A program made the position numbers and the translations under genes. From Euglena gracilis (lineage: Eukaryota), in assembly GCA_039621445.1 (NCBI GenBank), contig CP154954.1, positions 2,728,001 to 2,792,000 on the forward strand: a DNA stretch of 64,000 bases, in the 5' to 3' direction. This document shows positions 43,801 through 46,800 of this stretch, one piece after another. Under the pieces are notes generated by a model. The model made no database searches. It worked only from the letters and a program-made list of their open reading frames with translations, and was not told where the DNA came from. Every line of letters starts with the position of its first letter. Position 1 is the first letter of the stretch.

Positions 43801-46800
43801 CCAGGTACACCAAAGGGGGGTGCTAGATTCGCTCTAAGCCTCGGATTTGGTATTGGAGGCACAGGGAAGGACATTTTGACAGAGGGACTCCATGGCCATC
43901 GGAGCTTGGCGATGGGAAACGTGCCCTTTTCTGAACCCGAACCAGCACAGCCACCCCCTCGCAGCGGAAGGGGACGCAGCCCTGGACCGGAAGGAGGAAG
44001 CGAGGCGCATTCGGATGGCCTTGCTCTTCCCACCGCCTACCGACCTGACGGGTGTGTGCTGTGTCACCGCCCCTCCTCAATCTCATGTGCACTGCACAGC
44101 ATGGCTCAGATGGCGCAACACTGCCCAGGGAGGCAACACTCCAAATGCTCATTTGTTTGTCCCCGAATGGCGGCGACCCTGTGTCTTTTGGCGTTACTTT
44201 CAGAAATGGTACACATCTTTCGGCCTCGGCCAAAAACACAGGATCACAATCAAAATCAAATCAAAATCAATCAAAATCACAGCTGACTCCCCCCAGCTCT
44301 TTGGCCGATTCTCCACCAGCATCCAAATGTAAAGACCCCTGACCCCTGATTCCCCTCCCCTGACTGGTTGCAATGAATTTAACTGACACGGCAGAAAGAA
44401 GAGACTCTCCGAACACAGGCAACCCCAAAATATTAGCAACCCTGAAGCCCAACTTTCCAAAATGTTAGCAGCCGGCTGCCAGTGCTCAGGGGGCTTTCGT
44501 TTGATTTGGGGTCGCATTTTGGGCCAATGGGTAGGGACATATAATGTGAATCCGGTTCCCAATTTTTTCGGGAAATTTGGAGAATTTTTAGGGACCAGGT
44601 TGAAGTCATGGCCAGATGTGGGGGTTGCCTATATGGAATTATAGGACGAGTTTGGGCCCTGTTTCAGGCCAGAGTTAGGCCGAATTTAGACCAAATCCGG
44701 GCCATATTCCCGCAAAAGGTCAATGTTCTCCTGCTTCACGCCGGGCTGAAAATCGGTTGCCATGGGCATGCCGCTGTCCCAGACCTCTGTTTAGTGTGTA
44801 TTGGCAAAAAAAATTTGTGTATCGGTGTGTACCATTGATACACACTAAACAGAGGTCTGCGCTGTCCCCCCACGAACCCCACCCCATCCCGCCCCCGCCT
44901 TTGGCCTCAACTCCCACTGAGCTTGTACGACTGCCGTCGGGTGCGAATTCTGGTGGGCTCCCCACAGGGATGGTGCTGGACGAGGCGGTGCTGCGGCACT
45001 TTGACCTGTTGGAGGTGTCCACCCCGCAGCCGGCGGTTTTCTTAATTTCCAAGCCAGGGGTTTTTTTTTTTTAGTCGTGGACCCCCGGGGGGGGGGTAGG
45101 GTGGGTGGGTCCGGCCGAGCCCCCCCCCCCCCCCCGGGGATCACCCCAGGGGGGAGTGGGGTATACTTTTCGGCGCCGAAGGCACCGAAATTTTTTGAAA
45201 AAGTGCTTTTTTTGGTATTTTTCGCGATTGTTGGGTGGGTTCCCCGGGACCCCCCACCCGGGCCCACCCCCCTCCCCGGTCTTTAAAAAAAACTCCTGGT
45301 TGGGGCTGAGAGGTGCCGGTGTGGCACGGCTGCCAACCAGCGCCCCAACCAAAACAAGGGCGCGGTCCGGGTGACCGATTTTCGGCCCGGCGCAAGGCGC
45401 CGGGTCGAGAATCTTTGACCCTCCGAAACGACCAAAAGTGCCATTTTGGGCACTTTTTGGCAAAAGAATTGTGCAAAATGGAAAAAATTTCGGCGCAAAG
45501 CGCCGGAAGGAAAATTTGACCTTTTTGGGGGGTTCCCGATTACCCCCCCCCCCAACCCCCAACCCCCTGGGGAGGTCCAGCCGGCACCCCTTTTTTTCTC
45601 TCCAGCCGGCCTCGGGGGCCCCTTGGAGTGCTTAAGAAAACCCCAGCCCGCGGCTATTGGCGTGCCCGCAGCTTCGGACTTGTAGCATCGACGCCCTGCG
45701 GGCCACCCAGCGCAGGGCTGGCTGTGGAGCTGCCCGGCCGCCGCGCAGAAGCCACCCGGGAGAGGGGAGGGGCGGAACGCAAACGTGCTTTTTTTTGCAA
45801 TTTTTTTCCCGTTTTTTTTTTTTCAATTTTGGCAAAATGTTTCTTGCGCTTTTTGATTTTTTTGTGTCGCGTTTTTCGAGGGTCCGTGTTTGTGTTTCTC
45901 CCCCATACTGGGGGGGGGAATTTGAACAGGAAAATTTGTTGTGGGAAAAATTCTGGACGAAATTTTTTCCATGATTTCTCCTGCCATTTTTAAGGATCCA
46001 TCCAAGGATTTTTCCCAGAAAATTTAAGAACATCCAATGTCCTCAAGTGAACGCCCAAAAATCGTCTTCGGCGCTTCGCGCCGATTTGATTTTTGGAGTA
46101 TTTATATTCCAGGTCACTTGTTTTGTGTTTTCAGAATGTGGTGATCCTTCAAAAGGGGGGGGGGATGCGCTGCGCATTTTTGCGCATTTTTTTTGCGTAT
46201 TTTTGTCAATTTTTCAAAAATGCGCATTTTTGCGCATTTTGCGCGTATTTTTGCGCATTTTTTTCCATTTTCACACATTTTTTTTACACTTTTTGGAGGC
46301 ATTTTGTCCACATTGTCCATGTTGTCCACGTTGTCCATATGACTTGACATTGGTGTTCTTGAACGTCGTTCTTCTGAACAGTTCTATGTTGTCATCCATC
46401 CCCCTTTCCGTCAATAATCAAATTCTCCATTCTTCCCTCAGATTTTTTTCACAAAATGGCTTCAAGTTCAAGGGCTGATCATCCAAGCTTTTTTTCAATG
46501 GAAATTTTATTCTTGGACAAAAGCTTGCTGCCAAGGAGCTGAGCAGATGGAGCAAGATGAAATGCGGGGGAATGCTACTCCCCTGGTCACAAGTATGGGG
46601 CACCATGGCTGACATTGTTGGTTATGGTGAACGGAGAGTGACGTCTTGCTCGTGCATTTTTTTTTTGGCCAAAATGCCTTCATTTCAGCTCTTTTCGGTG
46701 ATTTTGGTTTAATTTTGGGCTTATCGTTGGAAATTTTTCTAAGTCCTTTTTCCCTTAGGAATGTCACAACTCAGCACATTTTTTTCGCATTTTTTTGCGC

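What the first reader, a model, noticed from the sequence alone, without database searches (positions are those of the whole stretch)
45023..45654. A MITE that is an intron: the 3+5 splice geometry equals the 8-bp TSD (introner-like system)
Seen: a 616-bp element with 15-bp TIRs and a 7/8 TSD (CCCGCAGC/CCCGCGGC) interrupts mTERF coding sequence. Cutting 3 nt before the left TIR and 5 nt after the right TIR (C|agc ... cccgc|G) restores [13 protein letters not shown]. Known: euglenid nonconventional introns pair +4..6 (often CAG) with -8..-6 (often CTG), and hAT elements have CA..TG ends with 8-bp TSDs. Inference: since 3+5=8, any such insertion is removed seamlessly with one TSD copy, so these MITEs can generate introns and the intron consensus may be a fossil of TIR+TSD. 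A transposon origin for these introns has been proposed in general terms; here the TIR, TSD and frame restoration are visible in one element.
Basis: partly seen in the sequence, partly recalled or inferred. Interest (0 to 1): 0.92.

Follow-up and report, generated by a model that had tools for sequence, protein, structure and literature searches.

The report
Euglena intron with transposon-like ends
This is a real nonconventional intron in a Euglena gracilis mTERF gene, and its inverted ends and 8-base flanking repeat look like the scars of a small DNA transposon, which gives a concrete example for an already published idea about where these odd introns come from.

Summary
A 616-bp stretch (45031-45646) has 13/15 inverted ends and a 7/8 eight-base direct repeat. 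It interrupts exon sequence of an mTERF gene. A transcript-derived Euglena gracilis protein (P0001) reads straight across it ([13 protein letters not shown]), so about 624 nt are removed. The cut can sit at six equivalent places; none is GT-AG. The cut 45027|45652 fits the published nonconventional code (3-nt spacer, C-D-G ... C-H-G, 5-nt spacer, purine), except that the middle pair is G.A.

The "MITE" label is only partly supported. The element's ends recur nowhere else in the 64 kb except in a paralogous duplicate of the same locus. Its interior is a mosaic that holds a nested copy of another repeat.

The window does contain six independent small inverted-repeat elements with CA...TG ends and 8-bp target duplications. 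One (47216-47506) is present in one paralog and cleanly absent in the other. This makes "3+5=8" plausible. However, only 1 of 16 nonconventional introns here shows the predicted duplication.

The MITE origin of these introns, the TSD-like junction repeats and the 3/5 spacers are already in print. This is therefore a good new example plus a sharpened, testable arithmetic, not a new system.

The parts
44968..45027 (+). Exon 7 of the mTERF gene (copy B), encoding (G)[19 protein letters not shown] plus the first base of the R codon
   Evidence: RNA joint 44050|44967 (GT..AG with the cut moved +1) in X8, X12 and X1; tblastn of P0001; junction search
45023..45030 (+). Left copy of the 8-nt direct repeat (CCCGCAGC). 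Its first 5 nt are exonic and its last 3 nt form the intron's 5' spacer.
45028..45651 (+). Nonconventional intron 7 (624 nt), drawn at the cut that fits the published code. Five other cuts, up to 5 nt to the left, give the same mRNA.
   Evidence: P0001 spans the junction; no GT-AG at any compatible cut; the predicted RNA fold pairs the two ends, z = -4.96 against 20 shuffles
45031..45045 (+). Left terminal inverted repeat (CGGCGGTTTTCTTAA). It starts at intron position +4.
   Evidence: 13/15 complementary to 45632-45646; the paralog has CGGGGGTTTGCTTAA
45055..45298 (+). Nested, diverged copy of the CAGGG...CCCTG repeat family that also occurs at 43129-43424
   Evidence: Collinear blastn pieces at 75%, 78% and 96% identity; inverted arms 45049-45068 / 45285-45304 (I13); no recognisable target duplication (3/8)
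45632..45646 (+). Right terminal inverted repeat (TTAAGAAAACCCCAG). It ends at intron position -6.
   Evidence: absent from the paralogous copy A
45647..45654 (+). Right copy of the 8-nt direct repeat (CCCGCGGC). Its first 5 nt form the intron's 3' spacer and its last 3 nt are exonic.
45652..45710 (+). Exon 8, encoding (R)[19 protein letters not shown]
   Evidence: tblastn of P0001; junction search; exon lengths 60 + 59 nt are needed to fit the record coordinates of RNA contig 4 (my arithmetic)
11317..11900 (+). Paralogous copy (A) of the same intron within a segmental duplication. It has the same left repeat and left arm and the same nested repeat. The right arm and the start of exon 8 are missing, and exon 8 has a 1-nt deletion.
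47216..47506 (+). 291-bp inverted-repeat element (CAGGCTG...CAGCCTG) flanked by GTTGCGGG / GTTGGGGG. It lies inside intron 8 of copy B and is absent from copy A, which has one GTTGGGGG at 12516-12523.
   Evidence: RNA-read loose ends fall at 47216, 47222 and 47506
44780..44859 (+). 80-bp element with perfect 22-nt inverted ends (CAG...CTG) and a perfect 8-bp duplication CGCTGTCC, inside the one GT-AG intron (44052-44967)
   Evidence: (I1)
43129..43424 (+). 296-bp element (CAGGGT...ACCCTG) with a perfect 8-bp duplication TTTGGGTG, inside nonconventional intron 5

Best explanation
Positions 45028-45651 are nonconventional intron 7 of 15 in a nuclear mTERF-family gene of Euglena gracilis. The intron is excised by the euglenid non-spliceosomal pathway. 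That pathway reads a terminal stem and cuts 3 nt upstream of its 5' strand and 5 nt downstream of its 3' strand. The cut can be drawn up to 5 nt further left with the same result.

The intron most likely arose when a small inverted-repeat DNA element inserted into the codons for T-P-R-L at the target CCCGCGGC and duplicated those 8 bp. Because 3 + 5 = 8, RNA excision removes the element plus one duplicate and restores the reading frame. A second repeat later nested inside the element, and the left duplicate changed G to A within the intronic spacer.

Shown here: the intron, its junction, its ends, the repeat, and the presence of 8-bp-duplicating elements nearby. Inferred: the insertional origin, and that copy B itself is the spliced template.
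For: Junction:
- P0001 reads [13 protein letters not shown] across it.
- In one search the exon-7 piece next to the joint 44050|44967 is 56 nt in RNA contig X1 and 61 nt in an X12 read. Those lengths end at 45022 and 45027, the two extremes of the slidable junction.
- The record coordinates of contig 4 leave exactly 614 nt for exons 3-11, which is the sum obtained with exon 7 = 60 nt and exon 8 = 59 nt. Both of these last two points are my inference.

Fit to the published code:
- Spacer AGC, then CGG ... CAG, spacer CCCGC, then G. Pyrimidine|purine at both junctions and C at exon position +3.

Transposon hallmarks:
- 13/15 inverted ends flush with a 7/8 eight-nt repeat. The chance of such a repeat at a junction is about 0.005.
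- The ends resemble the CAGG(G)-T-rich-TTAAG ends of neighbouring elements.

Context:
- Six independent elements in the window have CA...TG ends and 8-bp duplications. One has a filled and an empty site.
- In the scan, perfect flush repeats stood above the shifted controls only at length 8: 4 against 1, 2, 0, 0.

Literature:
- An 8-nt junction repeat in a recently gained E. agilis intron.
- TIR and TSD labelling of these introns in a 2024 review.
Against: - No second, non-paralogous copy of the element's termini: 0 in 64 kb and 0 in one metagenome scan. Multi-copy status, which defines a MITE, is therefore untested.
- The ends are CGG/CAG with a G.A mismatch at the middle pair. This differs from the CAG/CTG of the local elements and from the complementary pair that the published code asks for.
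- The repeat is close to a palindrome, so 4 of its bases also serve as a stem extension.
- Any nonconventional intron needs a terminal stem, so the inverted ends alone do not indicate a transposon.
- The transcripts seen are not identical to copy B. Contig 4 carries copy-A-like bases at 12 of 12 sites where it differs from B. P0001 differs from both copies.
- The joint itself is not in the printed part.
Confidence: 0.6

Rival explanations
1. It is an ordinary nonconventional intron, and its inverted ends and junction repeat do not come from a transposon. The stem is there because splicing needs it. The repeat comes from the shared pyrimidine|purine junction consensus, from a chance palindromic target, or from staggered double-strand-break repair at the time the intron was gained.
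For: - Junction repeats are general in this gene: mean exact repeat 1.82 against about 0.7 by chance over 17 introns. They are reported for 84.4% of E. agilis introns.
- Milanowski et al. 2016 read an 8-nt repeat as break repair.
- The CCGCGG core makes the repeat and the stem overlap (I9).
- No family copies were found.
Against: - Seven of 8 matches, bounded exactly by the inverted ends and in the -5..+3 register, is rare: about 0.005 per junction.
- The ends resemble those of co-resident mobile elements.
- Elements that make exactly 8-bp duplications have been active here.
Confidence: 0.3
2. Copy B is not the template of the spliced RNA. The transcripts would come from another allele or paralog that lacks the element (an empty site), and in copy B the element is simply a disruptive insertion.
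For: - RNA contig 4 is copy-A-like at 12 of 12 differing sites.
- P0001 is identical to neither copy.
- The 45027|45652 joint is not in the printed joints.
Against: - Both genomic copies carry the left end of the element at the same site.
- X12 reads carry copy-B bases at several exonic sites, for example 15 of 19 reads at 52503.
- No DNA joint skipping the element appears among those printed for the DNA run X7, though the list is truncated.
- The ends meet the published spacer rules.
Confidence: 0.07
3. It is a conventional spliceosomal intron that uses the GT at 45015 and the AG at 45670-45671. This splice also keeps the reading frame.
For: - Both sites exist and keep the frame.
- In paralog A the sequence upstream of that AG is pyrimidine-rich.
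Against: - P0001 contains the 11 residues (VSTP and RLLACPQ) that this splice would remove.
- The exon-7 pieces of 56 and 61 nt exceed the 48 nt that this donor would allow.
Confidence: 0.02

Closest known systems
Euglenid nonconventional introns (Milanowski et al. 2014, 2016; Nomura et al. 2025: 5'-N3-CDG ... CH'G-N5-6|R)
   Same: - No GT-AG at any compatible cut.
- A terminal stem that starts at +4 and ends at -6.
- A 3-nt and a 5-nt spacer, and a purine at the start of the next exon.
- Pyrimidine|purine at both junctions.
- A slidable junction.
   Different: The middle pair of the motif is G.A (CGG with CAG). In the sections I read, the pairs shown to splice were CAG-CTG, CGG-CCG, CGG-CTG and CTG-CAG. 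Excision as an RNA circle was not tested here.
Recently gained gapC intron 4 of Euglena agilis ACOI 323 (Milanowski et al. 2016, passages read)
   Same: A nonconventional intron with an eight-nucleotide direct repeat at the intron-exon junctions.
   Different: That intron is polymorphic between strains, so its gain is documented. The authors attributed its repeat to double-strand-break repair. The intron here is present in both paralogs, so no empty site is known.
Transposon-derived introns ('introners') of Micromonas, Aureococcus, Amoebophrya, Polarella and Fritillaria (review PMC11282704, passages read)
   Same: A DNA element with inverted ends and a target duplication lands in an exon and is removed from the RNA together with one duplicate.
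   Different: Those cases are defined by hundreds to thousands of near-identical copies. Most are removed by the spliceosome, using a splice site built partly from the duplication. Here no family is shown, and removal is by the euglenid stem-measuring pathway.
hAT-type MITEs (8-bp target duplication; the superfamily traits are recalled, not tested against a library)
   Same: An 8-bp flanking repeat, short inverted ends, no coding capacity and a length under 1 kb. Neighbouring elements have CA...TG tips.
   Different: The focal element's tips are CG...AG. No transposase was seen: the 10 longest ORFs of the window have no Pfam hit. An 8-bp duplication is not unique to hAT.

Membership tests
Euglenid nonconventional intron | Removed from mature mRNA | tested here: met
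   The transcript-derived protein P0001 is continuous across the site. Piece lengths and contig coordinates agree, but that is indirect evidence.
Euglenid nonconventional intron | No GT/GC-AG borders at any compatible cut | tested here: met
   The six equivalent cuts have ends CC-AG, CC-GC, CG-CC, GC-CC, CA-CG and AG-GC.
Euglenid nonconventional intron | Base-pairing that brings the two ends together | tested here: met
   Arms 45024-45045 / 45632-45653 are 82% complementary. The minimum-energy fold pairs the termini, z = -4.96.
Euglenid nonconventional intron | N3-CDG ... CH'G-N5-6 followed by an exonic purine, with D and H' complementary | tested here: inconclusive
   The spacers (3 and 5 nt), C..G at both motifs and the purine are all met. 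The middle bases are G and A, which are not complementary.
Euglenid nonconventional intron | Excised as a circular RNA | not testable with these tools
MITE | Terminal inverted repeats | tested here: met
   13/15, plus a shared TCCAAG block further in.
MITE | Target-site duplication flush with the ends | tested here: met
   7/8, bounded by mismatches on both sides.
MITE | Many copies with the same ends at unrelated loci | tested here: inconclusive
   0 non-paralogous copies in 64 kb and 0 in a metagenome scan. No whole genome is held.
MITE | Short and non-coding | tested here: met
   616 bp; the reading frame entered from exon 7 stops after 16 codons; no long ORF.
MITE | Presence/absence polymorphism (evidence of movement) | tested here: not met
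   Both paralogs carry it at the same site. By contrast, 47216-47506 does show a filled and an empty site.
hAT superfamily | 8-bp target duplication | tested here: met
hAT superfamily | An autonomous partner encoding a hAT transposase with matching ends | not testable with these tools
   No genome is held. The 10 longest ORFs of the window have no Pfam family.

The most novel reading that the evidence does not exclude
Euglenid nonconventional introns descend from a still-active superfamily of small elements with CAGG...CCTG ends and 8-bp target duplications. The fixed 3-nt and 5-nt offsets of the RNA excision machinery add up to that duplication. Any exon insertion whose duplicate has a purine at position 6 would therefore be born as a precisely removable intron. 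On this reading the CAG/CTG consensus and the junction repeats are decayed inverted ends and target duplications. The excision machinery may have evolved, or been borrowed from the transposition apparatus, to undo such insertions at the RNA level.
Probability: 0.35. Interest if true: 0.85.

Novelty: new member of a known kind. Interest (0 to 1): 0.5.

Why it matters
Where euglenid nonconventional introns come from, and what removes them, are open questions. They make up about 72% of introns in E. agilis.

The MITE hypothesis dates from 2014. At that time no transposable element had been identified in a euglenid genome. This window supplies two things:
- an intron that shows inverted ends, an 8-nt duplicate and exact frame restoration together;
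- real mobile elements in the same genome with CAG...CTG tips and 8-bp duplications, one caught as a filled and an empty site.

Together with the genetically defined 3-nt and 5-nt spacers, this turns a general hypothesis into a specific prediction. Anchored on the stem, junction identity should drop sharply after exactly 8 nt. Young introns should cluster with these element families. Both can be tested on existing genomes and RNA data.

Tried and rejected
- No whole genome is held for this window, so no genome-wide count was possible.
- Sequencing runs: no RNA holder was listed by the index. Runs were chosen by species label.
The neighbouring stretch was laid instead. Its joints table prints 15 of 1066 joints, and the 45027|45652 joint is not among them. 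The lay could not be repeated.
- The 30-letter loose end behind 44988 has no match in the window. It probably comes from another mTERF paralog or isoform.
- Earlier-findings look-ups returned nothing.
- Searching P0001 residues 150-300 found only P0001 itself, so there is no ortholog to check the insertion site.
- The first relaxed TIR + duplication scan was swamped by the (TA)n tract at 51423-51582 (2057 hits against 1785, 1438 and 987 in controls) and was uninformative.
- A second scan had a filter that was too strict and kept only one element. The third scan is the one used. It drops 43129-43424 because of its T-run, and four of its 12 hits are tandem repeats at 23495-24152.
- The metagenome scan with a 24-letter right-arm word gave 0 hits.
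- Rfam on the whole window gave 0 hits. No tandem repeat lies inside the intron.
- Pfam on the 10 longest ORFs gave 0 hits.
- The upstream transcribed unit (34.6-40 kb) shows no clear ORF, so it could not be used to add annotated introns.
- Supplementary files of the papers were not available. The repeat-length distributions in Nomura et al. 2025 (SI Fig. S3) and the junction tables of Milanowski et al. may already bear on the 8-nt question.
- Literature searches for an explicit link between an 8-bp duplication and the 3+5 spacers found none in the passages I read.
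Full report
**What the sequence shows**

The window is euglenid nuclear DNA. It carries a segmental duplication: 1-23029 matches 34203-59360 at 81-97% identity in blocks.

At the finding's coordinates, the 8-mers CCCGCAGC (45023-45030) and CCCGCGGC (45647-45654) flank a 616-bp stretch. The first and last 15 nt of that stretch are 13/15 complementary. 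The repeat finder reports the same pair as 22-nt arms with 82% complementarity that run into the flanking 8-mers (I9). An alignment of the two ends shows a further shared TCCAAG block after a small indel.

One qualification: the repeat has a CCGCGG core and is nearly its own reverse complement. Four of its bases thus count both as direct repeat and as stem.

**It is an intron**

I searched with a neighbouring exon and found one protein, P0001 (EukProt EG_transcript_8533, 490 aa). It passes Pfam's mTERF threshold: 27.8 bits against a cut-off of 23.1.

Mapped back on the window, P0001 defines 16 exons between 40882 and 56363 in copy B, and a parallel set in copy A. P0001 reads ...[27 protein letters not shown]... 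across the element. This requires removal of 624 nt.

- Six cuts (45022|45647 to 45027|45652) give the same mRNA.
- None of them has GT-AG ends.
- Three cuts further right would give Q instead of the observed R.
- The in-frame alternative GT(45015)...AG(45671) would delete 11 residues that P0001 has.
- Retention of the element would stop translation after 16 codons.

**RNA reads**

Nine RNA joints of this region are printed, and eight of them lack GT-AG. The joint at the finding is not among the 15 printed (1051 are not shown), and the lay could not be repeated.

Two indirect observations fit it:
- The exon-7 piece beside the joint 44050|44967 is 56 nt in the X1 contig and 61 nt in an X12 read. 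These pieces end at 45022 and 45027, which are exactly the two extremes of the slidable junction.
- The record coordinates of contig 4 leave 614 nt between exons 2 and 12. That equals the summed exon lengths only if exon 7 is 60 nt and exon 8 is 59 nt.

Both points are my inference from the table.

The expressed RNA is not simply copy B. Contig 4 carries the copy-A base at 12 of 12 sites where it differs from B, and the copy-B base at 49768. P0001 matches neither copy throughout. X12 reads show both kinds of bases. A third allele or paralog is likely. That copy B itself is spliced is therefore inferred.

**Fit to the known pathway**

Nomura et al. 2025 (abstract and sections 5, 7, 8, 10, 11, 12 read) defined the code 5'-N3-CDG ... 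CH'G-N5-6|R by knock-ins. They showed that the 5' spacer must be 3 nt and that the 3' spacer is best at 5 nt.

With the cut 45027|45652 the intron reads AGC-CGG ... CAG-CCCGC|G. It also has pyrimidine|purine at both junctions and C at exon position +3. These are the features listed by Milanowski et al. (passages read). The one departure is the middle pair, G opposite A. The predicted RNA fold pairs the ends.

This is a typical nonconventional intron. In the same gene, 14 of 15 introns are nonconventional. In the chosen register, 11 of the 16 nonconventional introns examined (14 in this gene, 2 upstream) have at least 6 of 8 stem pairs (G.U counted) starting at +4/-6, and 12 of 16 meet all four pyrimidine|purine junction positions.

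**Is it a MITE?**

- The element's termini occur nowhere else in the 64 kb except at the paralogous locus: blastn, a pattern search with up to 3 mismatches, and both ends of all 17 introns searched. A 24-letter word from the right arm has no exact match in the metagenome collection. No genome is held.
- The body is a mosaic. Positions 45055-45298 are a diverged, collinear copy of the element at 43129-43424. Other blocks match 59443-59576 and similar places.
- Paralog A keeps the left repeat, the left arm and the nested copy. It lacks the right arm and the first bases of exon 8, and it has a 1-nt deletion in exon 8. Copy A is probably defective there and gives no second view of the right end.
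- In favour of a transposon origin, the two termini (CGGCGGTTTTCTTAA and, read inward from the other end, CTGGGGTTTTCTTAAG) look like the CAGG(G)-T-rich-TTAAG ends of neighbouring elements. They differ from those at the second base.

**Mobile elements in the window**

I scanned for inverted-repeat pairs whose flanking 8-mers match.
- Exact 10-nt ends: 10 of 436 pairs have at least 7/8 flanking matches, against 3, 3 and 2 in shifted controls.
- Ends with at least 13/15 pairing: 12 of 1265 pairs have at most one flanking mismatch, against 3, 2, 4 and 4 in controls. Perfect flush repeats stand above the controls only at length 8 (4 against 1, 2, 0, 0).

After dropping four tandem-repeat hits and counting paralog pairs once, six independent elements remain:

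| Element | Duplicate |
|---|---|
| 44780-44859 | CGCTGTCC |
| 43129-43424 | TTTGGGTG |
| 35326-35805 | GTTTGGGA / GTTTGGAA |
| 37976-38261 | GTCCCCTC |
| 49191-49505 | ACCACAAC |
| 47216-47506 | GTTGCGGG / GTTGGGGG |

All six begin with CA and end with TG. Three have CAG...CTG tips.

The last element is present in copy B and absent from copy A, which has a single GTTGGGGG at 12516-12523. This is a filled and an empty site, so the insertion happened after the duplication. RNA-read loose ends fall at 47216, 47222 and 47506. Their consensus flanks share CTCTCCCA on both sides, as expected for another copy elsewhere with its own 8-bp duplicate (my reading).

All six elements lie inside introns. 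None coincides with an intron's borders.

**The general claim (3 + 5 = 8)**

The arithmetic is sound. Together with the published spacers, it predicts that an element with CAG...CTG tips and an 8-bp duplicate is removed seamlessly, provided position 6 of the duplicate is a purine. Two of the six local elements meet all these conditions (43129-43424 and 47216-47506).

Frame restoration by itself cannot prove the geometry, because every cut that removes the element plus one duplicate restores the frame.

Local evidence on other introns is thin:
- Junction repeats are enriched overall. The mean exact repeat is 1.82 against about 0.7 by chance. An 8-nt window with at least 6 matches occurs in 5 of 17 introns against about 3% expected, and with at least 7 matches in 2 of 17 against about 0.5%.
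- In the predicted -5..+3 register, only the focal intron reaches 6 or more. The per-intron values are 2, 5, 4, 2, 5, 4, 3, 7, 4, 3, 5, 4, 3, 1, 2, 2.
- The other 7/8 case (intron 12) is in a different register.
- Beyond the exact repeat, identity is 27/69 inside the window against 73/254 outside, one-sided p = 0.07. Without the focal intron the p value is 0.10.

**What is already known**

- The MITE origin was proposed in 2014.
- An 8-nt junction repeat in a newly gained E. agilis intron was reported in 2016 and attributed to break repair.
- A 2024 review labels the CAG/CTG positions as TIR and the junction repeats as TSD.
- The 2025 study fixes the 3/5 spacers and again suggests MITE-like sources.
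- A 2024 survey of 28,337 E. gracilis introns mentions the hypothesis only in its background.

In seven literature searches and the passages read, I found no statement that 3 + 5 equals an 8-bp duplication. I also found no description of euglenid element families with such duplications. Supplements were not available and may hold relevant distributions.

**Verdict**

The feature is a genuine nonconventional intron, and its ends and flanks are best read as the remains of an inverted-repeat element insertion. It cannot be called a member of a MITE family on present data.

The broader idea is a sharpened form of a published hypothesis. The local discovery of active elements with 8-bp duplications and CAG/CTG tips makes it more credible. 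The other 15 nonconventional introns in the window do not demonstrate it.

Noticed in passing
window 1-23029 and 34203-59360: A segmental duplication of about 23-25 kb with an 11-kb spacer, 81-97% identical in blocks. Each copy carries a copy of the mTERF gene and of an upstream transcribed unit.
   Followed up: partly
window 47216-47506 (copy B) against 12516-12523 (copy A): A 291-bp inverted-repeat element with an 8-bp target duplication is present in one paralog and cleanly absent in the other. RNA-read loose ends stop at its borders, and their consensus flanks share CTCTCCCA on both sides, which points to a further copy elsewhere.
   Followed up: yes
window 37976-38261 (= 3770-4060) and 49191-49505: Two independent members of one element family (C-A-G/C-GCTTGTGCTTAG ... 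CTAAGCACAAGCATG), each with a perfect but different 8-bp duplication. The second lies in a 790-bp segment that copy A lacks.
   Followed up: partly
window 9036-9208 (copy A) against 43251-43470 (copy B): The right half of the 43129-43424 element and its flank are inverted in copy A relative to copy B.
   Followed up: no
window 11860-11935 (copy A): Copy A lacks the 3' end of intron 7 and the first bases of exon 8. It also has a 1-nt deletion in exon 8, so it cannot encode [20 protein letters not shown] as assembled and is probably a decaying paralog. The expressed RNA still carries copy-A-like bases elsewhere, which suggests a third copy.
   Followed up: partly
window 44988: One RNA contig (X1) leaves the window sequence after 44988 and continues for 255 letters that are not in the window. 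Read in frame, the continuation looks mTERF-like, so it is probably another paralog or an alternative exon.
   Followed up: partly
window 40054-40072 and 52906-52923: Poly-C/G tracts attract hundreds of partly fitting RNA reads in X8 (loose ends of 63-234 reads). They inflate depth in those bins.
   Followed up: no
window 51423-51582: A (TA)n microsatellite with interspersed TC, inside intron 10 of copy B. Copy A lacks this roughly 190-bp tract (51419-51608 against 15454).
   Followed up: no
window 34600-40050: An upstream transcribed unit on the + strand has two nonconventional introns (35124-36577 and 39083-39516, RNA-supported). The exons I translated show no clear ORF.
   Followed up: partly
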